A DNA stretch of 64,000 bases from an uncultured Planctomycetales bacterium (GCA_964489065.1 CAZAXH010000008.1:64130-128129); one strand, 5' to 3'; numbered from the stretch's first letter, positions 6,149 to 40,879 are shown. The notes: generated from the letters alone by a model not told the origin. Translations and numbers: made by a program.

Positions 6149-6150
6149 CC

Positions 6151-6181
6151 TTGACTTTTTGAGCCAAAATTTTAAGATAAT
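6151..6181 (+). promoter_or_regulatory. Sigma70-like promoter candidate (TTGACT-16 nt-TAAGAT/GATAAT) facing the island
   Basis: -35 TTGACT at 6151-6156 and -10 TAAGAT at 6173-6178, about 185 nt upstream of the DegT gene start at 6366. Confidence 0.35.
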
Positions 6182-6365
6182 ATAAGTAGGCTGGGGCCCT
6201 TAGCCCGTTTATAGGATACCAATAAAGCAGTATCAAGGTTTGATGCTTTAATATATAATAAGTTAACATGATATATAACTATAAATTAATTCTATGTTAT
6301 ATTAATCAAATATTATGTGGACTATGTGCCCGGGATGATCCGGGAAAAAGACATAAAAACGGGGT

Positions 6366-7421
6366 ATGATAGAACATTCCAAACCGACATTGGGGCCGCG
6401 CGAGAGACAGGCGCTCCTGAAAACTCTGGCTTCCAATTATATTGCGGAAGGCCAGGAAGTGCATTGCTTTGAAAATGAGGTGGCCGCTTATATCGGTTCC
6501 CCGGGCGCTGTCGCAACGTCCACCGGAACTTTGGGGCTCCATCTCGCACTTCTTTGCCTTGATATGAAGCCAGGGGCCGAGATCATCATCCCAAGCTACA
6601 CTTGCCGCTCTGTTTTAAACGCGGTTTCCTACTGCCGGGCTAAACCGGTGGTATGTGACGTGGAGATAGAAAATTATAATTTGTCTTTTGCGGATGTAAA
6701 AAAAAAAATGACGGCTCGCACGCAAGCGATTATTGTGCCGCATATGTTCGGGTGTCCGGCGCCGATTGACCACTTTAAAACACTGGGGGTTCCTCTTATT
6801 GAAGACTGTGCGCACGCTTTGGGCACCGAATATAAAGGGCGGAAAGCGGGCTGTTGGGGCGATTTGGCCCTGCTTTCTTTTGAAGGTACAAAATATATTG
6901 TAACGGGGGAAGGGGGGATGGTCTTAGCCAACTCTGCCCGCATGCTCAAAAGGCTCCGCAAGTTGAAGGAGGGGGATTCTCCCGATCTTCCTGCGAAATA
7001 CACGTATCGTATGACGGATTTACAGGCCGCCGTGGGACGGGTTCAACTGAGCAGGCTGGAAGATTTTATTAAGAAACGCCGGAGCATCGCCCGGGTTTAT
7101 GATAAAGCCTTCGCATCTGTGACCGAAAGGCATCCGTTGGCGCACATTGACGGCCGCCATATTTACCAGCGTTACATGGTTCAGGTCCGGGGAAACATCC
7201 GTAAACTCATGGAAGATTGCCTTCGCCAGGGGATAAAAGTGAAGCAGCCGGTCAAACCTTATCCTCTGCACCGCTATCTGGGTCTTGCCGGAGGTTTATT
7301 CCCCAACACCGAGCGTATTATGCGTTCGGCGGTCTCTATCCCGATATATCCCTCGTTAACAAAAAAAGAGATTATGCATATAACACAAATACTGCCACCC
7401 TTATTCAAGCGCTATGCCTGA
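6366..7421 (+). CDS. DegT/DnrJ/EryC1/StrS family PLP-dependent aminotransferase
   Basis: N-terminal KPTLGPRE...YIAEGQEV...TGTLGLHLAL...IIPSYTC and the FEGTKYI lysine region typical of sugar aminotransferases or dehydratases. Contains an A11 homopolymer at 6698-6708. Confidence 0.8.
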   Translation: MIEHSKPTLGPRERQALLKTLASNYIAEGQEVHCFENEVAAYIGSPGAVATSTGTLGLHLALLCLDMKPGAEIIIPSYTCRSVLNAVSYCRAKPVVCDVEIENYNLSFADVKKKMTARTQAIIVPHMFGCPAPIDHFKTLGVPLIEDCAHALGTEYKGRKAGCWGDLALLSFEGTKYIVTGEGGMVLANSARMLKRLRKLKEGDSPDLPAKYTYRMTDLQAAVGRVQLSRLEDFIKKRRSIARVYDKAFASVTERHPLAHIDGRHIYQRYMVQVRGNIRKLMEDCLRQGIKVKQPVKPYPLHRYLGLAGGLFPNTERIMRSAVSIPIYPSLTKKEIMHITQILPPLFKRYA

Positions 7422-8406
7422 TACTGAAAAAACAATTATCCCGGTTCCTGATTTGTCCCATGTTGACGCCGGCCCGTTCCCGCCCATGGTGGTTGTCGAA
7501 ATCACGAATGTCTGTAATCTGCAGTGCATCCACTGTCCGTTTTGCTATATATCAAAAGAGCCCGGGTATAAACCGTGCTATATGGCCTGGCCGCTTTATA
7601 AAAAGATCGTGGATGAGGTCGCCGGCCATCCCGGAACCATTTTTCGGCTTTTATGTGACGGAGAGCCCCTCTGCCATCCTCGGTTTATCGATATGGTCCG
7701 CTATGCTAAGACGCGGGGGGTAAGCCCGGTTAATTTTATCACCAACGGGCTTTTAATGGACGGGGCCCGGGCTGCGGCGGTGCTGGAAGCCGGAGTGGAG
7801 GCGGTTGAATTCAGCCTGGATGCGCTTAATAAGAACACATACGAGCGCATCCGGAAAGGTTCGAATTATGAAACGGTCATGCATCATGTCAAAGGCTTTA
7901 TCCGGCTGCGAGACACGTTAAAGGCTCCGACAAAAATTTTTGTCAGCATTATTGACCAGCCTGAAGCCGAAGCCGAGTTGGACGCTTTTGTCGCTTACTG
8001 GACCCCCCGTGTCGACCGGGTTATTACCCGGGCCTACACGTCCATACGGGGCCTTGTTGACCCGGCCAAGATCAAGACCGACCCGCAGATTAAACGCTGG
8101 CCCTGTCCTGACCTTTGGAGGCGTTCGTTTATCAATGTCGACGGTTTTGCCGAATTCTGCGTGGAAGATTGGCACGACCAATCCGTGGTCGGGGATATTA
8201 ACAAAACGACCCTTCAGGCCGTCTGGCAGGGTCCGGATTACGAACGGCTCCGGACCCTGCACAGGCAACGGAGGTTTCAGGAAATTCCTTATTGTGCGGG
8301 CTGTCTGGATTGGCGGGCCCGGGACTGGCATTATGATTATTTTTTGGCTTTGAGAGATACGTTAGGCTCAACGGCAGCCCCAGAGCGGCGGGAGGTGCGG
8401 CCATGA
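7414..8406 (+). CDS. Radical SAM protein with C-terminal SPASM-like cysteine-rich domain
   Basis: VVEITNVCNLQCIHCPF (CX3CX2C), GEPL motif, C-terminal CPDLW...FCVEDW...YCAGCLDW cysteines. Overlaps the DegT gene by 8 nt. Confidence 0.75.
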   Translation: MPDTEKTIIPVPDLSHVDAGPFPPMVVVEITNVCNLQCIHCPFCYISKEPGYKPCYMAWPLYKKIVDEVAGHPGTIFRLLCDGEPLCHPRFIDMVRYAKTRGVSPVNFITNGLLMDGARAAAVLEAGVEAVEFSLDALNKNTYERIRKGSNYETVMHHVKGFIRLRDTLKAPTKIFVSIIDQPEAEAELDAFVAYWTPRVDRVITRAYTSIRGLVDPAKIKTDPQIKRWPCPDLWRRSFINVDGFAEFCVEDWHDQSVVGDINKTTLQAVWQGPDYERLRTLHRQRRFQEIPYCAGCLDWRARDWHYDYFLALRDTLGSTAAPERREVRP

Positions 8407-9779
8407 CTTCACGGATTCTCCGAAAAACTCAAAGTGTCTGTCCCCGGTGTCTCGAGACCCTGGACACCTTTATCGTGGAAAAGAACGCAAAAATCGTTAT
8501 GAAAAAAACCTGCCCCCGGCATGGGCTGTTTGAAATCGTATTGTCTTCGACTCCGACTTACTACGCCGAACTCGAGGAGTATTATTTTTCCCTGGCGGAC
8601 ACTCGTTATGAAGTCCCGGAATATGAATTTTGGCCAACCTACCGGTGCAACGCTGACTGCACGATCTGCTGTTTCGGGCGGCAGAATTGGGAGATGGCGG
8701 GGCAGGACGCCTCGACGGGCGAAATTGAAAAACTGGCTAAAAACAGCAAGAAGCGTTTTTTTATTATTTCCGGGGGTGACCCGACCTGCCGGGATGACCT
8801 GGGTGATATTATAAGGACTTTTCGTAAACACGGGAAAGTCGTGACGATCAATACCAACGGCTTAAAATGCGCGGATTTAAACTACCTGAAGAAGTTGAAA
8901 AAGGCGGGCCTGGATCGACTGAATTTGCAATTTGACGGGTTTGACCCCAGATATTATCTGGCTCTGCGGCGTCAGGATTACCTGGACATCAAGCTGAAAG
9001 TTCTTGAAAACCTGCAGACTTTGGGGATTCAGACGACATTCAACGCGACCATCGCCCGGAATCTTAATGAAGGAGCGATCAAGGAATTAATGGATTTCGC
9101 CTCTTCGCACCCTTTTATCAACGGCGTTAATTTCTTTTCCATCTGTTTTCTGGGAGGGGCGAGGGACTGGGAACAAAGTTCATACATCATGCCGGATGAA
9201 ATCATTGACCTGCTCATCAGCCAAATAAGACCCGTTATTTCTAAAAAGAATGTTTTTGTTTTTCAAAAACTTCATCTGGCGGTCAAGTCGTTCCTGGCTC
9301 AGAAATGGTGCTTTTATAATCAGGTCTATCTTTTTGTCCGCAGAAACGGCTCTTTCGAGCCGATTGACCGCTTTCTCAACCTCGCTAAAGCCGAACCTTG
9401 GCTGGACCGTTACAGGGACAACTTCAAGACCAAGCCCTTCTGGGCGCGCGCCTGTCTGGGGATAGCCGTGGGGTGTCTCTTCCTGAAAAAAGAGTCCGTT
9501 ATTATTTTAAAGGAGATCCTTTTGAGGAGCGTGTCCTATTTTCTGAAGACGCGCCATTATCTTCGCGGCAGCCGGTTTTTCTCCGTGAGCTTTTCAACCG
9601 GCTGTGATCCTTATAAATTTGATTTTAACATTGTGAAACATTGCCAGAATGAAATCATCGCGGCCCGGGACCAGGACGGCGTGTTGACTCACTTAGGGAG
9701 CGACGGCCTGTATTGCATGGGGCTGGAGAAACGGTATTTGAGAAATAAACTCCAGAAAGAGGGGATGAGTTCTCGTTGA
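8403..9779 (+). CDS. Zinc-ribbon (CPxC...CPxHG) N-domain fused to a radical SAM domain; uncharacterised family
   Basis: N-terminal SVCPRCLE...KTCPRHG, then WPTYRCNADCTIC (CX3CX2C with Ile instead of the usual aromatic), ISGGDPT, and C-terminal conserved FSTGCDPYKFD and HCQNEI. ATGA overlap upstream. Confidence 0.7.
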   Translation: MTSRILRKTQSVCPRCLETLDTFIVEKNAKIVMKKTCPRHGLFEIVLSSTPTYYAELEEYYFSLADTRYEVPEYEFWPTYRCNADCTICCFGRQNWEMAGQDASTGEIEKLAKNSKKRFFIISGGDPTCRDDLGDIIRTFRKHGKVVTINTNGLKCADLNYLKKLKKAGLDRLNLQFDGFDPRYYLALRRQDYLDIKLKVLENLQTLGIQTTFNATIARNLNEGAIKELMDFASSHPFINGVNFFSICFLGGARDWEQSSYIMPDEIIDLLISQIRPVISKKNVFVFQKLHLAVKSFLAQKWCFYNQVYLFVRRNGSFEPIDRFLNLAKAEPWLDRYRDNFKTKPFWARACLGIAVGCLFLKKESVIILKEILLRSVSYFLKTRHYLRGSRFFSVSFSTGCDPYKFDFNIVKHCQNEIIAARDQDGVLTHLGSDGLYCMGLEKRYLRNKLQKEGMSSR

Positions 9780-9780
9780 T

Positions 9781-11052
9781 ATGATGAAAGCCTACCCCCG
9801 ACATTCCGTTGACATTACCTGGCGCGATTACAAGCGCATGGTTTCGTTTTTCTTCACATCCCCGGCCCGGAGGAAAGAATTCCTTCCGGAATTCGAACAA
9901 CGCTTTGCGGAATATACCGGCACCCGCTTCGCCCTGTCCGTGCCGTCCGCCCGGGTGGGGCTTTATGCGATCCTGCAGTATTTTAATTTCCCTAAAGGGG
10001 CCGAAGTTATCATCACCCCGTTCACGCACCAGAGTATTTTTACGGTCCTGAAGACGTTCCGGCTTAAGCCGGTTTTCGTCGATATCGATGAAAAGACGCA
10101 CAATATCGACCCGCACCTGGTCAGGAAATCGGTTTCGGAGAAAACCCGTCTGCTGATTTTAACTCATATGTGGGGGCAGCCCTGCGACATGGCCGCGTTC
10201 ACCGCCTTGAAAAAAGAGTACGATCTGAAAATTATTGAAGATTGCGCCATGGCCGCCGGCGCGACTTACCAGGGGCGGAAAGTGGGGAGTTTCGTCGATG
10301 CCAGCATATTCAGCTTCGGGAAAGCTAAGGCCATTTGCGCTTTCGGCGGCGGGATGCTGTGCTGCCATGACGCCTCCATGAAGGATTTTATCTCCGGCCT
10401 GATCCGGGATTTTAAGCCCTCCCGGAGCCTGCCGCTGGCGGTTTCCGTCATTAATTCCGTGATCGCCAATATCCTGACCCGGCCCCGCTTTTTTTTCTTC
10501 TCCCTTTATCCGGTGATGCGGCTTTTCAACCTGCGGGATCCCTACAATCCGGTTGAACATAAAAAAGACTCCGAAGTCATCCTGGAGCAGATGCCGGAAG
10601 AATGGAAAGTCAAAATGTCGCCGTTTCAGGCCGCCCTGGGGCTGGAACAGCTCCGGAGCCTGGACGCCCGTAACCAGGCCCGGGCCCGTAACGCGCAGCT
10701 TTTGAACTTTTTGTTGGAGGGGACGCCGGGGATCAGTGTGCCCCGGCCGCAACCCGGAGGTAATCATATTTATCTTTACTACGCGGTTCATATACAGAAC
10801 GCCGCTTCTCTGGACGCCCTTAGGTTGAGCTTGCTGAAGCGTTCGGTCGACACGCAATTAAATGAGTTGACGACTCCCCGGCAGCTGCGTGTTTTCGGGG
10901 CGGACAGCCGGACGGTCCCTGTTTTTGAAACCATATCCGCGAATATCCTTGTCATCCCCAACGGGATTTATTTAAATGACCGGGATATCCGGCTTGTGGC
11001 GGAGGCGTTAAAACAGAGCCTGAGGTCCCTTCCGGGGAAGGGGGATGCATGA
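9781..11052 (+). CDS. DegT/DnrJ/EryC1-like PLP-dependent aminotransferase (divergent)
   Basis: ALSVPSARVGLYAIL, IITPFTH, ILTHMWGQPCDM, IIEDCAMA and FSFGKAKAI (lysine) arrangement typical of the family. Confidence 0.65.
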   Translation: MMKAYPRHSVDITWRDYKRMVSFFFTSPARRKEFLPEFEQRFAEYTGTRFALSVPSARVGLYAILQYFNFPKGAEVIITPFTHQSIFTVLKTFRLKPVFVDIDEKTHNIDPHLVRKSVSEKTRLLILTHMWGQPCDMAAFTALKKEYDLKIIEDCAMAAGATYQGRKVGSFVDASIFSFGKAKAICAFGGGMLCCHDASMKDFISGLIRDFKPSRSLPLAVSVINSVIANILTRPRFFFFSLYPVMRLFNLRDPYNPVEHKKDSEVILEQMPEEWKVKMSPFQAALGLEQLRSLDARNQARARNAQLLNFLLEGTPGISVPRPQPGGNHIYLYYAVHIQNAASLDALRLSLLKRSVDTQLNELTTPRQLRVFGADSRTVPVFETISANILVIPNGIYLNDRDIRLVAEALKQSLRSLPGKGDA

Positions 11053-12431
11053 AAACGGCCCGGCCATCCCGCTCGATATTACGGACAACGGAAAGCGTCT
11101 GCCCGAAATGTTCCGCGCCCCTGCCCGCCAGTATTGTCGCGGATGAAAAAGGCGTGTTTATGGAGAAACGCTGCCCGCAGCATGGAGATTTTCGCGTGCG
11201 CCTGTCCGAAACCCCGGCCTTGTACGCCGAACTGGACGGGTTTTACTGTTCCCTGATGGGGCGGGCGCAACCTTGTTTTGATTATGAAATCTGGCCCACC
11301 CTGCGGTGCAATATGAATTGCGCGATATGTTTTTTCGGCTGTCCGCGGGAATCTTCCCGGGTTTTTGAGCCGACGCTCAACGCCATCGAACAGTTCGTCA
11401 GCCGGGACCCGCACCCGTTTTACTGCCTCTCCGGAGCGGAAGCGACTGTCCGGGATGATTTGCCGGATATCATCCGTATTTTAAAAAAGCACCGGAAAGT
11501 CGTGACGTTGAACACTAACGGAATGCGTTTCGAGGATGAATCTTATCTGTTAAAACTGAAGAACGCCGGGCTGGACCGGGTTATTTTGCAATGCGATGGT
11601 TTTGATCCCCGTGTTTCCCTGAAGATGAGGGGAGAGGATGCTGTCCCCCAACGGCAGCGTGTCTTGGCCCTCTTGGAAAAGCATCATATGCCGACCGCGC
11701 TCAGTTCCACGATCGCCCGGGGCCTCAACGAACATACGGTTTCGGAATTGCTGGATTACGCGCTGGCGCATCCTTTCATCAACGGGATCGCGTTTCTGTC
11801 CATCGCCTTTGACGGCGGGGCCCGGAACTGGAGCCAGGAGCGCTACATGATGCCGGATGAAGTGATCGACGTTGTCTGCCGTGTCCCCGGCTATAACGTA
11901 AAAAAAGAAAACGTGCACAGATTTCAAAAGCTGCATTTCGCCGTCAAGGCGTTCTTGAAGCAGCGCGCGTGTTTATATAATCAGCTTTATGTCCTGGTGC
12001 GCCGGCGGGGTTCCTTTGAGCCTATTGACGCTTTCATGAATCTCGCTAAAGCCGAGCCCTGGCTGGACCGTTACCGGCACGCTTACGCGGGGAAGAAACA
12101 CGGCCTGGCCGCTCTTTATCTGGGGCTGGCTTTGCTATGCCTGTGCTGCCATCGCCGGATTTTAGTCCTGTTCCGGGACCTTCTCGGCTCGGGGGTGTCT
12201 TATTTCTTCCGGACGTCACGATATCTAAGAACAGGCCGACTGCTTGCTTTAAGTTTTACGACCAGCTGCGACCCGTATAAGCTCGACAAGACAATCCTCC
12301 AGAATTGTCAGAATGAAATTATGGCCGCGGATCAAACACCGGACTCTTTACGCCCTATCGGAAGGGAAGGCGCCTATTTCGTGAACCTGGAAAAACATTA
12401 CGCTGAATCTCAACCCCGGGGGGAACCATGA
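11049..12431 (+). CDS. Zinc-ribbon-radical SAM family protein (paralog of 8403-9779)
   Basis: SVCPKCSAPLP...KRCPQHG, WPTLRCNMNCAIC, LSGAEAT, TSCDPYKLD, NCQNEI. ATGA overlaps on both sides. Confidence 0.7.
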   Translation: MKTARPSRSILRTTESVCPKCSAPLPASIVADEKGVFMEKRCPQHGDFRVRLSETPALYAELDGFYCSLMGRAQPCFDYEIWPTLRCNMNCAICFFGCPRESSRVFEPTLNAIEQFVSRDPHPFYCLSGAEATVRDDLPDIIRILKKHRKVVTLNTNGMRFEDESYLLKLKNAGLDRVILQCDGFDPRVSLKMRGEDAVPQRQRVLALLEKHHMPTALSSTIARGLNEHTVSELLDYALAHPFINGIAFLSIAFDGGARNWSQERYMMPDEVIDVVCRVPGYNVKKENVHRFQKLHFAVKAFLKQRACLYNQLYVLVRRRGSFEPIDAFMNLAKAEPWLDRYRHAYAGKKHGLAALYLGLALLCLCCHRRILVLFRDLLGSGVSYFFRTSRYLRTGRLLALSFTTSCDPYKLDKTILQNCQNEIMAADQTPDSLRPIGREGAYFVNLEKHYAESQPRGEP

Positions 12432-15184
12432 AACCTGACACGATCATTCGCGCGACGCAAAGCGTTTGCCCTGTATGCCTGGAAGCCGTGCCCGCGACGG
12501 TGCTTGAGAAAGACGGCCGGGTTTACCTGACTAAGACCTGCCCCCGGCACGGGGCCTCCGAAGTCCTTCTGTCTGAGACCGCGGGTCTTTACAAAGAACT
12601 GGAAGGCTTTTTTTCCGCCGTTATGAACCCGTCTTACCGCATCCGCGAATATGAAATCTGGGTGACAATGCGCTGCAACACGTCTTGCACCATCTGTCAT
12701 CTCGGAGACAGCAACAGGATCGACATCCCGGACCCGAGCCTGGAAAAAATCGAGGAGTTTATCCTCCGGCATGACCAGCCGGCTTATATCCTTTCTGGGG
12801 GAGAGCCCACCTGCCGGGAAGACCTGCCGGATATTGTCCGCCTTTTTAAAAAGCACGGCAAGCATATCAGCCTGCACACGAACGGTCTGGCTTTAGGGAA
12901 CAAAGATTACATCCGTTCCCTGCAGGAAGCGGGGTTGGACCGGATCAATCTTCAATTTGACGGGTTCGCGCCGGACGCGTATAAAATTTTCCGGGGGAAA
13001 AATATCCTGGATAAGAAGCAACTGGCTTTAAAAAACCTGGAAGACCTGCGTCTGCCGACGGATTTGAATATCACGGTTGCCCGGGGTGTCAATGAGCCGG
13101 CCGTCATGGACAGCGTCCGGTTTGCCGTTAAACATCCTTTCATCTCTTCCGTTAACTTCTTCACGATCTGCTACCTGGGAGAAACGGCCCGATGGCCTTT
13201 AAAATATTTCCTTATGCCGGATACGATCGGAGACATCCTGGAAAAAGAAACAGGCGGCCGGATTTCCAAGCGCGGCATCATCCTTTTTCAGAAACTGCAC
13301 CTGGCCGTTAAATCCCTGCGTTCGGAGCGTTATTGCCTTTACAGCCAGATTTTTGTCCTGTTCCGAAAACGGGACGGGACGTATGACCCCATTGACCGCT
13401 ATCTTAACCTGGAACGGACGGACAGGCTTCTGAAACTTTATCAAAAAATGGCTCCCGGGCATCCTGTCCTCGCCAAAATAATTTTAATTTTAGGCCTGCC
13501 GTTTTTTATGATGCGCTGGTCCACGCTGGTGATCCTGAAAGAAATCTTGCGGACCGGATTTTCTTTTATGATCAACGAGGATTACGCTTTAAAAACCAGC
13601 CCGTTCCTTTATTTGAATTTTAATACGAGCTGTGATCCTTATAAAATCGATTACGGGTTCGTGCAGGATTGTCAGGATGAAATCATTTTTTATGACCGTC
13701 AGCAGGAACACTTGGTGAACCAGGGAGTGGACGGATTGCGCGCCATCGAGTTCGAGCGCCGCTACCGTAAGGCCGCCCCCAAGGAGACGATTCGCATTGA
13801 TCGGAAAATGGAAACATCCCAGAGGCATAAGCCTGCCGGCTTGGGCAACCGTGTCATTCGGGAGACAATGAGCGTGTGTCCTGTTTGCCTGGCCCCGCTC
13901 CCGGCCAGGATCCGGGCCGGAGCGGATGGCGTTTATCTGGAAAAGACATGCCCCCGGCACGGGGCCTTTCGCGTTTTTGTTTCGACTCATCCGGATGATT
14001 ATCAGGCCCTGTCCGACACTTATTTTTATTTTATCCCCGGGGCTCTGGAACAACGGGAATATTACGTCTGCGCGAGCACGCGGTGCAACATTTCGTGCCC
14101 GATTTGTTACCTGAATTATTGCCCTGAGCGGCCTCCTCTGACGCCCGAGGATATGAACAGCGCCGTGGGGGATAAACCGCAGGTGGAGCGCTTCACGTTT
14201 TCCCACGGCGAGCCCACGGTCTCTCCGCAACTGCCGGAGATGATCCGGGCTTTAAAGAAAGCCGGGAAATTTGTCAACATTCATACGAACGGCGTGAAAC
14301 TTGCCGATTATGCTTATACTCAATCCCTGAAACAGGCGGGGCTGGATCACGTGAGCCTCCAGTTTGACGGTTTTCGTGATGAAATTTATGAGACCCTGAG
14401 AGGCGGGAAGCTCTTGGAGGCCAAAACGCGCGCTTTGGATAATCTTAAGGCGCTGGAAATCCCCGTGACATTAAACGTGACGATCGCCGGGGGCGTTAAT
14501 GAAGACGAGTGGGGCAAAGTTTTTGATTACGTTGTCCGGAATGATTTTATTAAAGACGTGAGTTATATCACTTACTGCCATTACTCCCCTCAGGGGGATG
14601 CCGAGGGCCGGTCCATGATGCCGGACGACCTGGTGATACGCCTCGTGGAGCATTCTCAAGGGACGATTGAGAGGGAGGATGTGGTCTGTTTTCAGAAATT
14701 GTTTTACGCCTATTTAAGCGCCTTCCGCAAGAAAAAATGCTTTAACTATTATCATTATTGCGTTGTGCGGACATCCGGCGGATACCGTGGGATTGAGCGT
14801 TATCTGGATGTGCGGAAGATCGCCGGGAAGATTGACGCGTGCCGGGAGAGAGGACAAACGATGACGAAAACGTTGTTGCTGAAAATATTGTTAACCTCTC
14901 TGCGATGGGATAGTGTGGCGTTGATTCCTTACGGATTATTTTTGCTGTCGCGCGGGGGGTATCCCCCAAGCCCCGGGAAACTTTTAGTCGTGACGTTGGC
15001 CAGTATCTGCGACCCGTATAAATATGACGCAACGGTCGCCTTAAATTGCGGGCAGGGCATTATTACTCAAACCATGCAACATGAGAGTTACGGGACATAT
15101 ATTATCGAGGAGATGAAGCGTTCGCCGCGTCCCGACGCAGCTCGTGTCCTGCCTGACGCGTTTCCTCAAGGGGGTTCGGTATAA
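12428..15184 (+). CDS. Didomain fusion: two tandem zinc-ribbon-radical SAM modules in one 918-aa ORF
   Basis: Module 1 has SVCPVCLEAVP...KTCPRHG, MRCNTSCTIC, LSGGEPT, TSCDPYKID, DCQDEI. Module 2 starts near aa 470 (about 13835) with SVCPVCLAPLP...KTCPRHG, STRCNISCPIC, FSHGEPT, SICDPYKYD, NCGQGI. There is no stop between the modules. Confidence 0.7.
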   Translation: MKPDTIIRATQSVCPVCLEAVPATVLEKDGRVYLTKTCPRHGASEVLLSETAGLYKELEGFFSAVMNPSYRIREYEIWVTMRCNTSCTICHLGDSNRIDIPDPSLEKIEEFILRHDQPAYILSGGEPTCREDLPDIVRLFKKHGKHISLHTNGLALGNKDYIRSLQEAGLDRINLQFDGFAPDAYKIFRGKNILDKKQLALKNLEDLRLPTDLNITVARGVNEPAVMDSVRFAVKHPFISSVNFFTICYLGETARWPLKYFLMPDTIGDILEKETGGRISKRGIILFQKLHLAVKSLRSERYCLYSQIFVLFRKRDGTYDPIDRYLNLERTDRLLKLYQKMAPGHPVLAKIILILGLPFFMMRWSTLVILKEILRTGFSFMINEDYALKTSPFLYLNFNTSCDPYKIDYGFVQDCQDEIIFYDRQQEHLVNQGVDGLRAIEFERRYRKAAPKETIRIDRKMETSQRHKPAGLGNRVIRETMSVCPVCLAPLPARIRAGADGVYLEKTCPRHGAFRVFVSTHPDDYQALSDTYFYFIPGALEQREYYVCASTRCNISCPICYLNYCPERPPLTPEDMNSAVGDKPQVERFTFSHGEPTVSPQLPEMIRALKKAGKFVNIHTNGVKLADYAYTQSLKQAGLDHVSLQFDGFRDEIYETLRGGKLLEAKTRALDNLKALEIPVTLNVTIAGGVNEDEWGKVFDYVVRNDFIKDVSYITYCHYSPQGDAEGRSMMPDDLVIRLVEHSQGTIEREDVVCFQKLFYAYLSAFRKKKCFNYYHYCVVRTSGGYRGIERYLDVRKIAGKIDACRERGQTMTKTLLLKILLTSLRWDSVALIPYGLFLLSRGGYPPSPGKLLVVTLASICDPYKYDATVALNCGQGIITQTMQHESYGTYIIEEMKRSPRPDAARVLPDAFPQGGSV

Positions 15185-15188
15185 AATT

Positions 15189-16751
15189 ATGAAGATCGCC
15201 TTTATTAATGATTCCTGTGAACGGCTGGGTGTTGAATATATTTCAGCCGTGCTTAAACAGCATGGGCACACCGTCAAATTGTTCGCCGATCCGCAGCTCT
15301 TTGATGACGAAAATTTTACAATCGCGCCTCTGGCCAGGTTTTTTGACCGGCAGGAAGACCTGCTGGCCCAAATTCAGGCGTTCCAGCCGGATCTGATCGG
15401 GTTCTCGGTCGTGACGGACTTTTATCAGTGGGCCTGCCGCCTCGCCAGGCGTATCAAAGCGGTGATGGATGTCCCGGTGCTTTTCGGAGGGATTCACGCG
15501 ACATCGGTTCCCGAAAAGGTCCTGCAGCAGGATTGCGTGGATATGGTCTGCCGGGGGGAAGGGGAGTTCGCCCTTTTGGACCTCGCCGACAGCATGGAGA
15601 AGGGCCTCCGGGATTACACGATCCCCAACATTTGGTTTAAAAAAGACGGTGCGATCATCAGGAATGATGCGCGTCCCCTGATCGAGGACCTGGATGCGCT
15701 GCCGTTCGCGGATAAAGACCTTTTTTATGAGGCCAGCCCCCATTTTTCCCGTTGCTATTTCCTGATGACCAACCGCGGCTGCGCTTACGCCTGCAGTTAT
15801 TGCTGTAATTCATTCCTGAAAAAATTTTATCATGCGAAAGGCCGGTACCTGCGTTTCCGCAGCGCCGGAAACGTGATCCGGGAGTTGACCCTGGCCAAAC
15901 AGAAATACGGCATTAAAATGGTCCGTATCCACGATGATGACTTCCTCACGCACGACGTGCCCTGGTTCGAGGAGTTCGCGGAAGAATACTCCCGGCATAT
16001 ACAGGCCCCGTTCGCATGCTTCACGCACCCCAACAGCGTGACGGAAACCAAAGCCCGCCTGCTGAAGAAAGCAGGGTGCCACGATATCGAAGTGGGGGTC
16101 CAGTCCATCTCCTCGGACACGCGTTACCGGATTCTTAACCGCCGCGTTTCGGATGAGCAATTGGTCCGCGCTCTGCAGATATTAAAAGACGCGGGCATCA
16201 AGGTGATCACGGATAATATCCTGGGGCTTCCTCACCAGGGGCGGGAGGAGCTTCTGGATCTCATTAAATTTTATAATAAAAACAGGATCATGAAGATTTA
16301 CTGTTTCGGCTTCCGGCATTATCCGGCCACGGATATCGTCGAATATTCCAGGGACGAGAAACTGCTGAGCGCACAGGATGTCGAGAACCTGGAGAACGGG
16401 ATCAATGTCAAGACCTTCATTCAGAGCGGGGATAATTTGAGCCGTGAGGACCGGCAACTGCAGACATTTTTTGCGTTTCTGCTCTACCTGCCGGAGACGG
16501 TCAATAATTACATCCTTGAGAAAAAGCTGTACCGTTATTTTATCCCGCTCCCGTATTATGTCCTGGTTATCTTTTCCAATTGGCTGCGCATCCCGTACCG
16601 GTACAACTGGGCGCTGCATATTACCGTGTGCCGGTACCGGGTTTATGCTTATAAAACGATAAAGAAAAAGTTTACCTCGGGTATCAGGGCGTTGCTTAAA
16701 AAGTTCCGCCCTTCGGCCTTTAACACGGCGCGGGGGACGCCTGTCCGGTGA
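15189..16751 (+). CDS. Predicted B12-binding-domain radical SAM protein (MKIAF subfamily, paralog 1 of 7 in tandem)
   Basis: N-terminal Rossmann-like MKIAFINDSCERLGVEYISAVLKQHGH, then NRGCAYACSYCCNS (CX3CX2C) and DLDALPFADKDLFY. Start chosen at the ATG just after the upstream stop, with AGGGGG about 15 nt upstream. Confidence 0.7.
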   Translation: MKIAFINDSCERLGVEYISAVLKQHGHTVKLFADPQLFDDENFTIAPLARFFDRQEDLLAQIQAFQPDLIGFSVVTDFYQWACRLARRIKAVMDVPVLFGGIHATSVPEKVLQQDCVDMVCRGEGEFALLDLADSMEKGLRDYTIPNIWFKKDGAIIRNDARPLIEDLDALPFADKDLFYEASPHFSRCYFLMTNRGCAYACSYCCNSFLKKFYHAKGRYLRFRSAGNVIRELTLAKQKYGIKMVRIHDDDFLTHDVPWFEEFAEEYSRHIQAPFACFTHPNSVTETKARLLKKAGCHDIEVGVQSISSDTRYRILNRRVSDEQLVRALQILKDAGIKVITDNILGLPHQGREELLDLIKFYNKNRIMKIYCFGFRHYPATDIVEYSRDEKLLSAQDVENLENGINVKTFIQSGDNLSREDRQLQTFFAFLLYLPETVNNYILEKKLYRYFIPLPYYVLVIFSNWLRIPYRYNWALHITVCRYRVYAYKTIKKKFTSGIRALLKKFRPSAFNTARGTPVR

Positions 16752-16761
16752 AACAAGATAA

Positions 16762-18114
16762 ATGTCTATGAAAACTTATTTCATAAGCGCGTCGACATTC
16801 TGCATGGAACGGATGCTGGACTGCCAGCAGGTTTCCGATTATCTCAAGTTGAACGGCTGGCGTCCGGTGACGCGGGTTCGGCAGGCCGGGCTGGTCATCA
16901 TAAGCACCTGCTCGTTCGGGCGCGAAGAGGACGCGAGCTCCCTGGATTATATCCGTTATTTTCTGCGGAAGAAATCGCCCCGGGCCCGTTTCCTGATTAT
17001 GGGGTGCCTTCCGGTGATCAACCCCGACTTATTATCTTCTTATCAGGATATTCCCGTGCTCACACCGACCACTTTATCCCGGATCGAAACCGTGGCCCCT
17101 CCGGAGAGGACCCGGTTCGCGGATGTCCCGGAACCCAATAAAATTTTGGCGACAGAAGTCACGCACAGTGTTTTTCTGAAAAAAGCGTTAAGTTTCCGTT
17201 CCGCGTTCAGGCAGGGCCTCCGGTGTTTTAAGCCTGATGTAGCGACGTTGCGGCGGGGGCTGTCCTTCCTGAAAGCCGCGGTGCGTTATGTCCCGGTTAT
17301 GAAGGCGCACATTAACCCGTTCTTATCCTGTAACCGGAACGGATTTTATTATTTGAGATTATCCAAGGGCTGCCTGGGGAACTGCAGTTACTGCGCTAAA
17401 AGACATTCGACAGGGACCTTGCAGAGCAAATCCACAACCTCTATCCTCGATGAATTCCGCGCCGGGCTCAGGGCCGGGGAAAAGCAGTTTTATTTATTGA
17501 CGGAAGACGTCGGCTGTTACGGGGCCGACCGGCACACAGATATCGTAGCCTTGTTGAAAAATCTTTTTGAAGCCGGGGAGAGGCATGATTTCCGGATTGT
17601 CCTGTCCAATTTCAATGCCCGGTGGTTCGTGCGGTATTATGAGGACCTGGAGCCGGTCTTGATCCGGAATCAGAACAAAATTTTGTATCTGCAAATACCG
17701 ATCCAGTCAGGCAGCACCCGCATCCTGGAATTCATGAACCGGCATTACACCATTGAAGACGTGGAATCCCGGCTCCTGACTTTAAGAAAGAACGCCCCGG
17801 CGGTCGCCTTCACGACCGATATCATCGCCGGATTCCCGGGGGAAACGGATGAGGATTTTGAACTCACCAAGAAGTTTTTGTCGAAAATACGTTTTCAGCA
17901 CGTTGATATTTTCGCTTACGAAAAACGCCCCGGCACTAAAGCGGGAACGCTTCCCGGGGACGTCCCCCCGGAGATCATCGAAGCCCGTGTCCTGCAGTTG
18001 GCCCGGCTTCAGAACAGCTATCACCGGGGCCCCATGCTTGCTAAAAAAGTGCTGGATGTTATCCGGGAAAACCTGCAGCGCTACCGGAATAAAGCCGTGA
18101 CCCGTACGCCATGA
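16762..18114 (+). CDS. MiaB/RimO-like radical SAM methylthiotransferase family protein
   Basis: N-terminal MTTase-like domain with LVIISTCSF, rSAM motif LSKGCLGNCSYCAKRHSTG, and ITDIIAGFPGETDEDF typical of the MTTase C-terminal region. Confidence 0.6.
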   Translation: MSMKTYFISASTFCMERMLDCQQVSDYLKLNGWRPVTRVRQAGLVIISTCSFGREEDASSLDYIRYFLRKKSPRARFLIMGCLPVINPDLLSSYQDIPVLTPTTLSRIETVAPPERTRFADVPEPNKILATEVTHSVFLKKALSFRSAFRQGLRCFKPDVATLRRGLSFLKAAVRYVPVMKAHINPFLSCNRNGFYYLRLSKGCLGNCSYCAKRHSTGTLQSKSTTSILDEFRAGLRAGEKQFYLLTEDVGCYGADRHTDIVALLKNLFEAGERHDFRIVLSNFNARWFVRYYEDLEPVLIRNQNKILYLQIPIQSGSTRILEFMNRHYTIEDVESRLLTLRKNAPAVAFTTDIIAGFPGETDEDFELTKKFLSKIRFQHVDIFAYEKRPGTKAGTLPGDVPPEIIEARVLQLARLQNSYHRGPMLAKKVLDVIRENLQRYRNKAVTRTP

Positions 18115-19625
18115 CAAAACAAGGCCTGAGAATTGCTTTTGTGAATGATTCCTGCGAGCATTTGGGGGTTGAATATATCTCCGCCGTGCTGAAATCCGCA
18201 GGGCATGATACCCGTCTATTCGTTGACCCGCTTTTGTTTGATGATGAATTTATCACCGTTAAGGGGCTCAGCCGCCGCTTTGATTACACTAAGAAGATTA
18301 TCCGGGACCTCAGGGCTTATCAGCCGGATCTGGTCAGCCTGTCGGTGGTCTCAAGCTTCTATCCCTGGGCCGGCCGGATGGCCCGGGCTATAAAGGCGGA
18401 GATGGACGTCCCCGTTATCATGGGCGGTATTCATCCGACATCCGTTCCCGAAAGTGTCATCCAGAACGACGCCGTGGATATGGTCTGCCTGGGGGAAGGG
18501 GAATACCCCCTGCTGGAACTTGCCGACAGTATGGCCCGGGGAAGTATCGACGACACCGTAAAAAACATCTGGTTTAAAAAGAACGGGAAGATCCTGCGCA
18601 ACCCTTTGCGGCCGCTTATCGACGATTTAGATGCCCTCCCGTTTCCCGATAAAGACCTTTATTATTCCGTCAGCCCGCATTTTTCAAAAAGTTATTATAT
18701 CGCGACCAGCAGAGGCTGCCCCAACGCCTGCAGTTATTGCTGTAATTCTTACCTGCATTCTTTGTACAAGGGCCTGGGCGCGCCGCGGCGGTCGCGCAGC
18801 GTCCGGAATGTCATTGAAGAATTAATGTGGGCCCAAAACCGTTACCGGATCGATCCGGTTTTCTTCCTGGATGACTGTTTCGGGACCGATTTGGGATGGT
18901 TAAAAAAATTCGCGACGGAGTACCGAGAAAAAGTCGGCGTTAAGTTTTACTGCATGATGTTCCCCGCACCCCAGATGGAAGAGGCGGTTGAATATCTCGC
19001 GCAGGCCGGCTGCGGGGAAATCGAGATCGGCGTCCAGTCCTGGGATGAAGATGTCAGGCGCCGGATATTCAACCGGCGCGTTTCGAACGACACGATGATC
19101 CGGACGATGAAATTGATCAGGAAGGCGGGGATCAATCTCGTGACAGGCGATATCCTCGGTTATCCCGGGCAGAAAGAGGAGCATATTTTAAAAACCGCGG
19201 AGATTTACACAGACATAAAACCCAGCCGGACGTACGCTTTTATCCTGAAATATTTTCCCAAAACGGAGATCACGGAACAGGCGCTGCAGAACGGATGTCT
19301 GAGTCCGGCGGATCACGAAAAAATATTGGACGGCCATTACGGCAAATACTTATCGAAAGACGGCTCCATGACAGAGAGGGATGTCATGCAATATCTGCTT
19401 CTATTTTTGCTGGTGCGTATTTTACCGGTCTCTTGGGCCAAGACAGTAATCCGGAAAAAATTTTATAAGCGTTTCCCGGTTTTGTTCACGCCGGCCGTGA
19501 TTTCAATCCTGAATAATTTTTCGACATCCACCTTTGAATCGCAGGTCAACCGGAAAAGCGCCCTGGCACGGTACACTTTTTTCATTAAACGATTGTTTTC
19601 TAAATCCAAAGCAGGTGCGCGATGA
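18111..19625 (+). CDS. Predicted B12-binding radical SAM protein (MKIAF subfamily, paralog 2)
   Basis: LRIAFVNDSCEHLGVEYISAVLKSAGH, SRGCPNACSYCCNS. ATGA overlap with the upstream gene. Confidence 0.7.
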   Translation: MTKQGLRIAFVNDSCEHLGVEYISAVLKSAGHDTRLFVDPLLFDDEFITVKGLSRRFDYTKKIIRDLRAYQPDLVSLSVVSSFYPWAGRMARAIKAEMDVPVIMGGIHPTSVPESVIQNDAVDMVCLGEGEYPLLELADSMARGSIDDTVKNIWFKKNGKILRNPLRPLIDDLDALPFPDKDLYYSVSPHFSKSYYIATSRGCPNACSYCCNSYLHSLYKGLGAPRRSRSVRNVIEELMWAQNRYRIDPVFFLDDCFGTDLGWLKKFATEYREKVGVKFYCMMFPAPQMEEAVEYLAQAGCGEIEIGVQSWDEDVRRRIFNRRVSNDTMIRTMKLIRKAGINLVTGDILGYPGQKEEHILKTAEIYTDIKPSRTYAFILKYFPKTEITEQALQNGCLSPADHEKILDGHYGKYLSKDGSMTERDVMQYLLLFLLVRILPVSWAKTVIRKKFYKRFPVLFTPAVISILNNFSTSTFESQVNRKSALARYTFFIKRLFSKSKAGAR

Positions 19626-23980: not shown

Positions 23981-24013
23981 ACCAGGGGGATGAAGGTCGG
24001 CAAGGATAAGGTT

Positions 24014-27012: not shown

Positions 27013-27029
27013 CCGCGGAAAGGATTAAC

Positions 27030-28640: not shown

Positions 28641-28680
28641 ACTCTGTTTTGTGCCTTTGTTAAGAGAGGAAAAAGGTTTT

Positions 28681-32773: not shown

Positions 32774-32977
32774 AAACAGAGGAGGACAAAAGGGCCGCCC
32801 CCTGGCAAAAATTATGGAGCCCCATGCCCATAGGCATGTGGCTATTAACAATTCGTTTCGCGGAATGATCTGACCACCTTAATATATGTACGGACATCCC
32901 CGAAACAGAAAACCTTGTTAGTCCTCCGGCATTCATCCACGGGCACGCCTGCGGTCTTCTGCCAGGGGGATAAAAAT

Positions 32978-40875: not shown

Positions 40876-40879
40876 CGAT

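What the first reader, a model, noticed from the sequence alone, without database searches (positions are those of the whole stretch)
8403..15184. Uncharacterised zinc-ribbon-radical SAM family with CX3CxIC motif and CDPYK C-terminal signature, present as five modules
Modules at 8403, 11049, 12428, about 13835 and 22637 all begin with S(V/L)CP.C....(P/K)...(15-20 aa)...K.C(P/D).HG. That is three Cys and one His, a treble-clef or zinc-ribbon-like site. A radical SAM core follows in which the residue before the third Cys is Ile (RCN..C.IC), where most rSAM enzymes have an aromatic. Then come (S/Y)GGEP-like and conserved C-terminal (T/S)(S/I/V)CD(P/K)YK(F/L/I/Y)D and (N/D/Y)C(Q/G)(N/D/Q)(E/G)I motifs. 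The C-terminal region has too few conserved Cys for a SPASM or twitch domain with two auxiliary clusters. I do not recognise this architecture as any characterised rSAM subfamily. It always occurs next to the MKIAF B12-rSAM paralogs, so a two-protein system is plausible.
Basis: partly seen in the sequence, partly recalled or inferred. Interest (0 to 1): 0.82.

Follow-up and report, generated by a model that had tools for sequence, protein, structure and literature searches.

The report
Tetraether-synthase-like radical SAM enzyme paralogs
The five repeated modules are real, but they are a trimmed-down bacterial branch of the known archaeal tetraether lipid synthase (Tes/GDGT-MAS) fold, sitting in a conserved and undescribed Omnitrophota operon packed with radical SAM enzymes that probably tailors an envelope lipid or glycolipid.

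Summary
Five modules (8403, 11049, 12428, 13829, 22637) share C-x2-C-x20-C-x2-H, one CX3CxIC radical SAM motif and three conserved C-terminal Cys.

- The Cys3His site has exactly the spacing of the rubredoxin-like iron site of GDGT-MAS.
- The Ile before the third Cys is also present in GDGT-MAS.
- The C-terminal Cys map onto its single auxiliary-cluster domain.

The modules are not Tes orthologs. They lack the N-terminal [4Fe-4S] insert and the conserved Tyr459, and they score about 150 bits against cut-offs of 450-490.

The family is almost confined to Omnitrophota. It sits in a conserved operon: DegT, SPASM-rSAM, Tes-like, DegT, Tes-like, B12-rSAM, MiaB-like, more B12-rSAMs. A natural B12-rSAM::Tes-like fusion supports the proposed partnership.

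The substrate is unknown. I infer C-H functionalisation of a lipid or lipid-linked substrate. Verdict: a new variant of a known kind.

The parts
8403..9779 (+). Tes-like module 1 (458 aa), orthogroup A, the paralog that follows the SPASM-rSAM gene
8439..8522 (+). Codons C13 to H40 of module 1: the C-x2-C-x20-C-x2-H site, predicted to bind a rubredoxin-like mononuclear metal
   Evidence: Invariant in 67 homologs. Same spacing as GDGT-MAS C9/C12/C33/H36, which binds Fe.
8646..8669 (+). Codons C82 to C89 of module 1: CX3CX2C ligands of the radical SAM [4Fe-4S] cluster (CNADCTIC)
   Evidence: Invariant. Aligns to GDGT-MAS C98/C102/C105.
9309..9644 (+). Codons C303 to C414 of module 1: C-terminal domain carrying the three candidate ligands (C303, C401 in CDPYK, C414) of one auxiliary [4Fe-4S] cluster, plus the most hydrophobic helices of the protein
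   Evidence: C303 aligns to GDGT-MAS C338 and C414 to C455. C401 lies 4 residues after C438, at the M442 position. The D-x-Y-x-x-D motif is shared. The hydropathy maximum falls at residues 348-370 in all five modules.
11049..12431 (+). Tes-like module 2 (460 aa), a lineage-specific duplicate of orthogroup A
12428..13828 (+). Tes-like module 3, orthogroup B, N-terminal half of the 918-aa ORF
   Evidence: It is a separate gene with its own TAA stop in L005 and L006.
13829..15184 (+). Tes-like module 4, orthogroup C (the paralog that follows DegT2 in other genomes), C-terminal half of the 918-aa ORF
22637..23980 (+). Tes-like module 5 (447 aa), orthogroup D, embedded between B12-rSAM genes
6366..7421 (+). 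DegT-family PLP aminotransferase 1, first gene of the conserved core
   Evidence: PF01041 E 4e-80. Conserved position in related loci.
7414..8406 (+). Radical SAM/SPASM protein (330 aa). Its reading frame overlaps both neighbouring genes.
   Evidence: PF04055 plus PF13186. Conserved, 49% identical even in the distant minimal cluster L003. Weak PDB matches to PqqE and BtrN.
9781..11052 (+). DegT-family aminotransferase 2
   Evidence: PF01041 E 6.6e-66. Best PDB match is the Gln:scyllo-inositol transaminase 7b0d, E 3e-38. Conserved.
15144..16751 (+). MKIAF-type B12-binding radical SAM paralog 1. The likely start is ATG at 15186.
   Evidence: PF02310 plus PF04055. Family HMM 822 bits.
16762..18114 (+). 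MiaB/RimO-like methylthiotransferase-type radical SAM protein with no TRAM domain detected
   Evidence: PF00919 plus PF04055. TIGR00089 scores 212 bits, below its cut-off of 251. Conserved in the operon.
18111..22653 (+). MKIAF B12-rSAM paralogs 2-4 (18111-19625, 19622-21136, 21115-22653)
   Evidence: Family HMM 802-855 bits. Position-specific orthogroups.
23990..28640 (+). MKIAF B12-rSAM paralogs 5-7 (23990-25540, 25537-27012, 27030-28640)
   Evidence: Family HMM 811-823 bits.
31303..32076 (+). GT2 glycosyltransferase that travels with the rSAM trio
   Evidence: PF00535. 49% identical to the GT2 of the minimal cluster L003.
32915..34765 (+). YfhO-like polytopic membrane protein, a putative GT-C glycosyltransferase
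   Evidence: PF09586 E 3.5e-8. Weak homology to the 611-aa protein of L003.

Best explanation
Each module is a trimmed paralog of the tetraether lipid synthase GDGT-MAS/Tes.

Predicted parts of one module:
- An N-terminal rubredoxin-like domain that binds one metal ion through Cys3His. By homology the metal is iron rather than zinc.
- A partial TIM-barrel radical SAM core whose CX3CxIC cluster cleaves SAM to the 5'-deoxyadenosyl radical.
- A helical C-terminal domain that holds one auxiliary [4Fe-4S] cluster on three Cys (C303, C401, C414). One iron is left free or weakly ligated, next to a hydrophobic pocket.
- The surface N-terminal [4Fe-4S] domain of archaeal Tes has been lost.

Inferred mechanism, by analogy with Tes: the 5'-dA radical abstracts H from an unactivated sp3 carbon of a hydrophobic chain. 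The substrate radical is parked on the auxiliary cluster. It is then resolved by C-C (or C-X) bond formation.

The four ancient, position-specific paralog groups would act at successive or different sites. They would work with dedicated MKIAF B12-rSAM partners (methylation, ring closure or desaturation), a SPASM-rSAM, a MiaB-like enzyme and two DegT aminotransferases. Together these form an Omnitrophota-specific operon that tailors an envelope lipid, glycolipid or polyprenyl-linked glycan. A co-travelling GT2 plus GT-C glycosylation machinery would then handle the product.

Shown here: the fold, the metal-ligand pattern, the loss of the N-cluster, the paralog structure, the synteny and the fusion.

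Inferred: the metal identities, the auxiliary-cluster chemistry, the lipid nature of the substrate and the product.
For: Architecture and fold:
- Pfam PF23545 plus PF04055 in all five modules.
- Profile against PDB: 7TOL E 8.9e-77, near full length.
- AF2 pLDDT 94.9, pTM 0.92.
- Foldseek TM 0.77 against 0.39 for the next fold.

Metal sites:
- The CX2CX20CX2H spacing is identical to the Fe site of GDGT-MAS.
- C303 aligns to C338 and C414 to C455. The D-x-Y-x-x-D motif is shared.
- The GDGT-MAS C-terminal cluster is likewise 3 Cys plus a dispensable Met, and it is the site of the C-S intermediate.

Hydrophobic substrate:
- The hydropathy maximum of every module lies in the C-terminal helices. 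These correspond to the amphipathic helices of the GDGT-MAS lipid pocket.

System level:
- The operon is conserved in all informative Omnitrophota loci.
- The paralogs form position-specific orthogroups.
- A B12-rSAM::Tes-like fusion occurs in two assemblies.
- The same three enzyme classes (Tes; SPASM Gms; B12-rSAM Grs, Gmm and Ted) make up the archaeal toolkit for modifying lipid tails.
Against: - No biochemical or lipid data exist for any member, and Omnitrophota are uncultured.
- The modules score only 143-182 bits against the Tes and TrsS equivalog cut-offs of 450 and 490.
- They lack Tyr459, which is strictly conserved in archaeal Tes.
- The third C-terminal Cys is displaced by 4 residues, and the labile Met is not conserved.
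- I could not inspect model coordinates to confirm that the three Cys converge.
- The surrounding genes (DegT, WbqC, GT2, PMT_2, YfhO, AsnB, ABC-2 transporter) are typical of glycan rather than acyl-lipid pathways.
- The nearest solved relatives of the partner enzymes are aminoglycoside or cyclitol enzymes: AprD4, BtrN and scyllo-inositol transaminase.
- No fatty-acid, isoprenoid or ether-lipid genes lie in the window.
Confidence: 0.55

Rival explanations
1. The Tes-like modules and their B12-rSAM partners act on a sugar, aminocyclitol or nucleotide-sugar head group. This could be C-methylation, deoxygenation, ring contraction or C-C coupling on an O-antigen-like or capsule-like glycan or a glycolipid head group. 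They would not act on an alkyl chain.
For: - Two to three DegT sugar aminotransferases, WbqC, GT2, PMT_2, YfhO-like, asparagine synthase and an ABC-2 transporter lie in the same locus.
- DegT2 is closest to the Gln:scyllo-inositol and 2-deoxy-scyllo-inosose transaminases.
- The MKIAF B12-rSAM is closest to the AprD4 diol dehydratase. Its top NCBIfam hit is HpnJ, the hopanoid-associated radical SAM protein. HpnJ's role in forming the cyclitol head group is from my own knowledge, not a tool result.
- The SPASM protein weakly matches BtrN.
- After Tes, the core of the modules is most similar to MoaA, a nucleotide-binding enzyme with a 3-Cys auxiliary cluster. The MoaA cluster detail is from my own knowledge.
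- GT2 and GT-C proteins persist even in the minimal cluster.
Against: - The only characterised enzyme with this full three-domain fold binds lipids in hydrophobic tunnels.
- The C-terminal helices are the most hydrophobic part of every module.
- All matches of the partner enzymes to sugar enzymes are weak and lie far below family cut-offs.
- The minimal cluster L003 lacks DegT and MiaB-like genes but keeps the Tes-like, B12 and SPASM genes.
Confidence: 0.25
2. The operon matures a ribosomal peptide (RiPP). The B12-rSAM C-methyltransferases, a SPASM maturase and the Tes-like enzymes would cross-link side chains.
For: - Arrays of B12-rSAM and SPASM-rSAM genes are typical of proteusin-like and other RiPP clusters.
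- The B12 paralogs hit ApyD and the RiPP C-methyltransferase models weakly.
Against: - The 15 genes from 6366 to 28640 overlap or are separated by at most about 20 nt, which leaves no room for a precursor gene.
- The only upstream gap, 6025-6365, holds AT-rich spurious ORFs with no conserved peptide.
- No precursor-like gene is conserved upstream in related loci.
- No peptidase or leader-recognition (RRE) domain was found.
- DegT, GT2, WbqC and GT-C genes do not fit a RiPP pathway.
Confidence: 0.07
3. The modules are pterin methyltransferases. This is the 'HMPTM' activity (7,8-dihydro-6-hydroxymethylpterin dimethyltransferase) after which the Pfam N-terminal domain is named.
For: The Pfam domain name, and one JGI annotation of a homolog, P0009.
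Against: - The protein on which that name rests, MJ0619, was shown to be the tetraether and macrocyclic archaeol synthase. Its active site is a hydrophobic tunnel judged unlikely to bind a pterin (PMC9433317).
- The context here contains no pterin or methanopterin genes.
- Omnitrophota are bacteria.
Confidence: 0.02
4. One reading: a wholly new zinc-ribbon-radical SAM architecture unrelated to any characterised subfamily.
For: No equivalog model reaches its cut-off. No paper in the searchable library describes this subfamily or this operon.
Against: Full-length sequence and fold homology to GDGT-MAS. An existing Pfam domain covers the N-terminal ribbon.
Confidence: 0.03

Closest known systems
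GDGT-MAS / tetraether synthase Tes (M. jannaschii MJ0619; PDB 7TOL and 7TOM; NCBIfam NF045702; InterPro IPR034474)
   Same: - Identical C-x2-C-x20-C-x2-H rubredoxin-like site.
- Same radical SAM motif, C-x3-C-x-I-C.
- A C-terminal helical domain with three Cys, two of which align exactly, and a shared D-x-Y-x-x-D motif.
- Hydrophobic C-terminal helices.
   Different: - The 16-residue insert carrying the second CX3CX2C plus His, which holds the N-terminal [4Fe-4S] cluster, is absent.
- Tyr459 is replaced by Ile or Phe.
- The Cys438/Met439 ligand pair is replaced by a Cys four residues downstream (CDPYK).
- The proteins are about 60 residues shorter.
- Identity is 23-34%, and the Tes model scores 143-153 bits per module against a cut-off of 450.
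- There are 3-5 paralogs per operon, against 1-2 genes per archaeal genome.
- The family is bacterial (Omnitrophota) and clusters with B12-rSAM arrays, DegT and glycosyltransferase genes.
TrsS radical SAM (seleno)protein (NCBIfam NF045646)
   Same: It is the best-scoring NCBIfam model, at 150-182 bits per module. It belongs to the same Tes-like superfamily.
   Different: - The scores are far below the cut-off of 490.
- The ORFs read through without an in-frame UGA, so they are not selenoproteins.
- TrsS itself has no known function.
Archaeal lipid-tail toolkit: Tes plus Gms (SPASM/twitch rSAM) plus GrsA/B, Gmm, GDGT methylases and Ted (B12-rSAMs)
   Same: The same three radical SAM classes (Tes-like, SPASM, B12-binding) occur together, and in some archaea and bacteria they are clustered.
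   Different: - Here all three sit in one tightly coupled operon with many more paralogs.
- The operon also carries DegT aminotransferases, a MiaB-like enzyme and glycosyltransferases.
- I could not test orthology of the SPASM and B12 proteins to Gms or Grs, because no reference sequences were available.
MoaA (GTP 3',8-cyclase)
   Different: Only about 255 core residues align. MoaA has no rubredoxin-like domain and no helical C-terminal lipid-pocket domain.

Membership tests
GDGT-MAS/Tes (NF045702, PDB 7TOL) | Overall four-domain fold: rubredoxin-like, N-cluster, RS core and C-terminal cluster domains | tested here: inconclusive
   [not shown]
GDGT-MAS/Tes (NF045702, PDB 7TOL) | Rubredoxin-like mononuclear Fe site C9-x2-C12-x20-C33-x2-H36 | tested here: met
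   C13-x2-C16-x20-C37-x2-H40 is invariant in the 5 modules and in 67 homologs. The identity of the metal was not tested.
GDGT-MAS/Tes (NF045702, PDB 7TOL) | N-terminal auxiliary [4Fe-4S] cluster on C73, C77, C80 plus His (a second CX3CX2C motif) | tested here: not met
   Each module has only one CX3CX2C. The GDGT-MAS insert 'gcpydcglcpnhkstt' has no counterpart. Of 113 full-length representatives, 109 also have a single motif.
GDGT-MAS/Tes (NF045702, PDB 7TOL) | Radical SAM CX3CX2C cluster and SAM-binding core | tested here: met
   C82, C86 and C89 are invariant. PF04055 E 1e-18 to 1e-26.
GDGT-MAS/Tes (NF045702, PDB 7TOL) | C-terminal [4Fe-4S] cluster on three Cys plus the labile Met439 | tested here: inconclusive
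   Three conserved Cys are present. C303 aligns to C338 and C414 to C455. The third, C401, is shifted 4 residues from C438. Met439 aligns to Ser or Thr.
GDGT-MAS/Tes (NF045702, PDB 7TOL) | Tyr459, strictly conserved in about 1000 archaeal homologs | tested here: not met
   It aligns to I418 in module 1, and to Ile or Phe in the other modules.
GDGT-MAS/Tes (NF045702, PDB 7TOL) | NCBIfam equivalog cut-off of 450 bits. The field's criterion is BLASTP E below 1e-50 with identity above 20-30%. | tested here: not met
   143-153 bits per module. Pairwise BLASTP gives 27-34% identity over only the first 310-384 alignment columns. A genuine Tes-type hit, P0120, gives 44% identity and E 2.6e-144 over its full length.
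GDGT-MAS/Tes (NF045702, PDB 7TOL) | Tail-to-tail Csp3-Csp3 coupling of lipid chains | not testable with these tools
   Needs anaerobic expression, lipidomics or an in vitro assay.
TrsS (NF045646) | Equivalog cut-off of 490 bits, and a selenocysteine in many members | tested here: not met
   150-182 bits per module. The ORFs are uninterrupted and have no in-frame UGA.
Pfam architecture Zn_ribbon_HMPTM (PF23545) plus Radical_SAM (PF04055) | Both domains above the gathering thresholds, in this order | tested here: met
   PF23545 scores 53-60 bits per module against a cut-off of 27. PF04055 scores 66-93 bits against 29.5.
SPASM/twitch radical SAM | C-terminal CX9-15GX4C...CX2CX5CX3C motifs binding one or two auxiliary clusters (PF13186) | tested here: not met
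   No module hits PF13186, whereas the neighbouring gene 7414-8406 does. Only three Cys are conserved after the core.

The most novel reading that the evidence does not exclude
The operon would be an assembly line for a class of bacterial envelope lipid not yet seen. An example is a multiply cross-linked, methylated, cyclised and aminated membrane-spanning or polycyclic lipid, or a radically remodelled polyprenyl-linked glycolipid. The 'short' Tes-like enzymes would form obligate pairs with dedicated B12-rSAM partners, as the natural fusion suggests. Together they would carry out C-H functionalisation chemistry that neither class performs alone. If so, Omnitrophota, which are ubiquitous in anoxic sediments and groundwater, would be a source of orphan lipid biomarkers.
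Probability: 0.3. Interest if true: 0.8.

Novelty: new variant of a known kind. Interest (0 to 1): 0.55.

Why it matters
Tes/GDGT-MAS is the only enzyme known to couple two unactivated sp3 carbons through an iron-sulfur-cluster-bound intermediate.

- **A natural minimal version.** This clade lacks the N-terminal cluster and Tyr459 and has a re-positioned cluster ligand. More than 100 clusters at 50% identity share the short form. It offers a test of which cofactors the chemistry really needs.
- **A gap in lipid surveys.** The family falls below the thresholds used in published surveys for tetraether and brGDGT producers (E below 1e-50). The lipid-modifying potential of Omnitrophota may therefore have been under-counted.
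- **A target for expression.** The operon has 3-5 Tes-like, 5-8 B12-rSAM, SPASM, MiaB-like and two DegT genes, and the window holds about 19 radical SAM domains in 43 kb. It is one of the densest radical SAM loci one could hope to express heterologously. Its product could be a new lipid or glycolipid class and a possible biomarker.

Tried and rejected
- **RiPP hypothesis.** I looked for precursor ORFs in the only intergenic gap (6025-6365) and in the upstream regions of related loci. Nothing was conserved.
- **Pterin methylase (HMPTM) reading.** Rejected on the GDGT-MAS paper.
- **TrsS.** The literature gives no function.
- **Are the MKIAF B12-rSAMs Mss homologs?** The Mss paper does not describe a B12 domain, and no Mss, Grs or Gms sequences were available offline. 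This stays untested.
- **The search for related loci with the 67-sequence alignment.** It failed because no stretch was conserved enough. I repeated it with a 21-sequence alignment.
- **Fold search afdb50.** The library was unavailable.
- **Model coordinates.** They are not exposed, so I could not measure Cys-Cys distances in the C-terminal domain.
- **Literature searches.** Searches for any description of this subfamily or operon (Omnitrophota with radical SAM or B12, IPR034474, PF23545) found none. The Omnitrophota genome papers mention radical SAM only in passing.
- **tRNA scan.** The window contains none.

Full report

Yes. The + strand carries ORFs at these coordinates:
- 8403-9779 (458 aa)
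- 11049-12431 (460 aa)
- 12428-15184 (918 aa)
- 22637-23980 (447 aa)

The 918-aa ORF holds two complete modules, with the second starting near 13829.

Identity of the other modules to module 1 is 31-47%. The alignment has these invariant residues, in module-1 numbering:
- C13, C16, C37, H40
- C82, C86, I88, C89
- T128
- C303
- C401, D402, Y404, K405, D407
- C414

They are family traits and not chance.
- A database search found 145 homologs with E of 1e-10 or better. Nearly all have the same length and the same C-x2-C-x20-C-x2-H spacing.
- In a 67-sequence alignment, C13, C16, C37, H40, C82, C86, C89, C303 and C401 are invariant. C414 is at least 90% conserved.

**2. What the modules are**

Pfam assigns every module to PF23545 (Zn_ribbon_HMPTM) followed by PF04055 (Radical_SAM). 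Both score above their gathering thresholds.

The best NCBIfam models are TrsS (150-182 bits per module) and the tetraether synthase Tes (143-153 bits). These lie far below the equivalog cut-offs of 490 and 450.

Against the PDB, GDGT-MAS (7TOL/7TOM) stands alone as the match:
- phmmer E 3e-39.
- With the family profile, E 8.9e-77, aligned over profile positions 9-426 against chain residues 23-485.
- An AlphaFold2 model of module 1 built on the 67-sequence alignment is very confident, with pLDDT 94.9 and pTM 0.92.
- The model matches 7TOM with Foldseek TM 0.77, E 3e-31.

So the 'unrecognised architecture' is the Tes/GDGT-MAS architecture.

**3. Site-by-site comparison with GDGT-MAS**

The paper (PMC9433317) describes four metal sites:
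- A rubredoxin-like Fe on C9-x2-C12-x20-C33-x2-H36.
- An N-terminal [4Fe-4S] cluster on C73, C77, C80 plus a His.
- The radical SAM cluster.
- A C-terminal [4Fe-4S] cluster on three Cys plus the labile, dispensable Met439. This cluster forms the C-S intermediate during catalysis.

Tyr459 is strictly conserved in archaeal homologs.

I rebuilt the GDGT-MAS sequence from the HMMER alignment, and the numbering agrees with the paper. The comparison gives five points.

(a) The window's C13-x2-C16-x20-C37-x2-H40 has exactly the rubredoxin-site spacing. By homology the expected metal is Fe, not Zn.

(b) GDGT-MAS reads C98-NLN-C102-P-I-C105. The 'unusual' Ile before the third Cys is therefore a superfamily trait.

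(c) The 16-residue insert 'gcpydcglcpnhkstt', which carries the N-terminal cluster, has no counterpart here. Every module and nearly every homolog has a single CX3CX2C.

(d) C303 aligns with C338 and C414 with C455. The signature CDPYK.D aligns with M442-D-A-Y-N-F-D. The conserved Cys401 therefore sits four residues downstream of C438/M439. Three Cys remain for one auxiliary cluster, with an open or weakly ligated fourth iron.

(e) Tyr459 aligns with Ile or Phe.

The modules keep three of the four Tes metal sites and lose one. They also lack a residue thought to be important in Tes.

**4. How far the family is from true Tes**

- Pairwise BLASTP of the five modules against GDGT-MAS gives 27-34% identity over only the first 310-384 alignment columns.
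- A genuine Tes-type hit in my list, P0120, has two CX3CX2C motifs. It gives 44% identity and E 2.6e-144 over its full length.
- Published surveys define Tes homologs by E below 1e-50. This clade would mostly be missed by that rule.
- A full HMMER scan of 1.84 billion cluster representatives found 1150 with E of 1e-30 or better. Of the 113 full-length proteins among the best 150, 109 have exactly one CX3CX2C and 95 match the Cys3His pattern.
- The 'short Tes-like' form is therefore a sizeable clade.
- The exact CD.YK signature marks only its inner part: 21 of the 113.

**5. Organism and distribution**

- The best hits are Candidatus Omnitrophota MAGs, at 91% identity.
- In a scan of one genome per species, 12 full-length or near-full-length matches were recovered, at 33-91% identity. 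Ten come from Omnitrophota/Omnitrophica MAGs. Two come from automatically binned MAGs labelled Planctomycetia or Planctomycetales.
- The MKIAF B12-rSAM family has the same taxonomic bias.

**6. Genomic context**

I built HMMs for the Tes-like and MKIAF families and used single-sequence searches for the neighbours. I then scanned all retrieved loci.

The conserved order is:
DegT1, SPASM-rSAM, Tes-like, DegT2, Tes-like (or several), B12-rSAM, MiaB-like, B12-rSAM repeated, Tes-like, B12-rSAM.

- This order, with local rearrangements in L002, L011 and L012, recurs in L001/L007, L002, L004/L009, L006, L011, L012, L014, L015 and the window.
- The distant locus L003 keeps only a reduced SPASM, B12 and Tes-like core.
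- Every locus whose contig continues beyond the last Tes-like gene contains MKIAF genes, which is 9 of 9.
- In the window the 15 genes from 6366 to 28640 overlap or are separated by at most about 20 nt. This implies a single operon with translational coupling.

Neighbour-joining trees show that the Tes-like paralogs fall into position-specific orthogroups:
- A: after the SPASM gene.
- B.
- C: after DegT2.
- D: between B12 genes.

These orthogroups are shared across distant Omnitrophota. The paralogs are therefore ancient and presumably non-redundant. The B12 paralogs behave the same way. Module 2 is a lineage-specific duplicate of group A.

A distant, minimal cluster (L003/L021) encodes the following, in order:
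- a SPASM-rSAM;
- a 950-aa B12-rSAM::Tes-like fusion;
- a second Tes-like gene;
- a B12-rSAM;
- a GT2 that is 49% identical to window 31303-32076;
- YfhO-like or polytopic membrane proteins.

It has no DegT or MiaB-like genes. The fusion is present in two independent assemblies and is also a cluster representative, P0243.

**7. The wider locus**

Between about 7.4 and 49 kb the window carries about 19 radical SAM domains. It also carries:
- three DegT aminotransferases;
- GT2, WbqC and an LPG_synthase_TM-like protein;
- YfhO-like and PMT_2 (GT-C) membrane proteins;
- a PaaK-like adenylating ligase;
- an asparagine synthase;
- further downstream, an ABC-2 transporter and an RND/OEP efflux system.

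This is the make-up of an envelope glycan or glycolipid locus. There are no fatty-acid or isoprenoid synthesis genes.

The nearest solved relatives of the partner enzymes are weak matches:
- PqqE and BtrN for the SPASM protein.
- AprD4, CysS and TokK for the B12 enzyme.
- Sugar and inositol transaminases for DegT2.

**8. Mechanism**

Shown by the analyses here:
- the fold;
- the ligand patterns;
- the loss of the N-cluster;
- hydrophobic C-terminal helices at the same place in all modules, corresponding to the amphipathic helices of the GDGT-MAS lipid pocket;
- the operon structure;
- the fusion.

Inferred:
- Each module uses the 5'-dA radical to abstract H from an unactivated carbon of a hydrophobic or lipid-linked substrate.
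- The auxiliary three-Cys cluster captures the radical, as in Tes.
- Resolution gives a C-C or C-X bond.
- The B12-rSAM partners add methyl groups, rings or double bonds, as Grs, Gmm and Ted do on archaeal lipids.
- SPASM plus DegT could convert C-OH to C-NH2 through a ketone, as in BtrN/BtrS-type logic. This last point rests on my own knowledge.

The main rival is that the substrate is the sugar or cyclitol head group and not the chain. I weight that at about 0.25. RiPP maturation is unlikely because no precursor gene could be found. The pterin methylase reading is obsolete.

**9. Novelty**

No paper in the searchable library describes this subfamily or operon. The bacterial Tes-homolog literature concerns Acidobacteria, Planctomycetes and others, and uses stricter thresholds.

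The finding is therefore not a new architecture. It is a new variant of a known kind: a minimal, three-cofactor Tes-like clade, multiplied into paralog sets and wired to B12-rSAM partners in a phylum-specific operon.

I score interest at 0.55. The architecture claim that drove the original score of 0.82 does not hold. The operon remains an attractive and testable target for radical SAM enzymology and for lipid biomarker research.

Noticed in passing
window 13795-13835 (junction inside ORF 12428-15184): The window has a run of four A at about 13803-13806 (GATCGG-AAAATGG). Relatives L005 and L006 have one more base there, followed by an in-frame TAA. In the window the missing base fuses Tes-like modules 3 and 4 into one 918-aa ORF. 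This is either a very recent natural fusion or a homopolymer sequencing or assembly error.
   Followed up: yes
L003 4510-7362 and L021 1510-4362 (protein P0243): A 950-aa natural fusion of an MKIAF-type B12-rSAM (N-terminal) with a Tes-like module (C-terminal). It is present in two independent metagenome assemblies. The surrounding minimal cluster lacks DegT and MiaB-like genes.
   Followed up: yes
window 16762-18114: A MiaB/RimO-like methylthiotransferase-type radical SAM protein (UPF0004 plus Radical_SAM). No TRAM domain was detected, and it scores below the TIGR00089 cut-off (212 against 251 bits). It holds a conserved position inside the operon in most related loci, which suggests a substrate other than tRNA or ribosomal protein.
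   Followed up: partly
window 7414-49071: The density of radical SAM genes is extraordinary, at about 19 domains: 1 SPASM, 5 Tes-like, 7 MKIAF B12, 1 MiaB-like, and five further radical SAM genes at 36259-37674(-), 39370-40875, 42134-43612, 43609-44613 and 47599-49071. Four of those five are B12-type or B12-like. The fifth, 43609-44613, is a plain MoaA/SPASM-like core. They are interleaved with a third DegT gene (40739-42124), PMT_2 and an asparagine synthase.
   Followed up: partly
window 34766-37674 (- strand): A PaaK/F390-synthetase-like adenylate-forming ligase (34766-36262) is coupled to a B12-like radical SAM protein (36259-37674). The pair is divergently oriented relative to the main operon. 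It could activate a carboxylic acid substrate.
   Followed up: no
window 8000-28000 compared with its flanks: G+C is 0.50-0.55 across the rSAM operon, against 0.445-0.47 in the flanking 0-8 kb and 28-30 kb. This may reflect amino-acid composition or acquisition from elsewhere.
   Followed up: no
window 28609-30291, 46007-47602, 1173-2843: Three large ORFs (560, 531 and 556 aa) have no Pfam or NCBIfam match. The first has a polytopic hydrophobic N-terminal half and follows directly after the last B12-rSAM gene.
   Followed up: no
proteins P0103, P0111, P0266, P0269 (homologs from elsewhere): Some Tes-like homologs are much longer (640-771 aa), with the Tes-like part at the C-terminal end. For P0103 and P0111 the extra N-terminal part carries a hemerythrin domain (PF01814). 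That hints at O2 or redox sensing, or electron supply, to the rubredoxin-like site.
   Followed up: no
window 5179-6024 (- strand): A 281-aa ORF with no Pfam match has an internally repeated sequence of the form '...G.W......G......V.I.Q....I......E..G......'. It looks like a duplicated lipocalin-like or small beta-barrel lipoprotein and lies immediately upstream of the operon.
   Followed up: no
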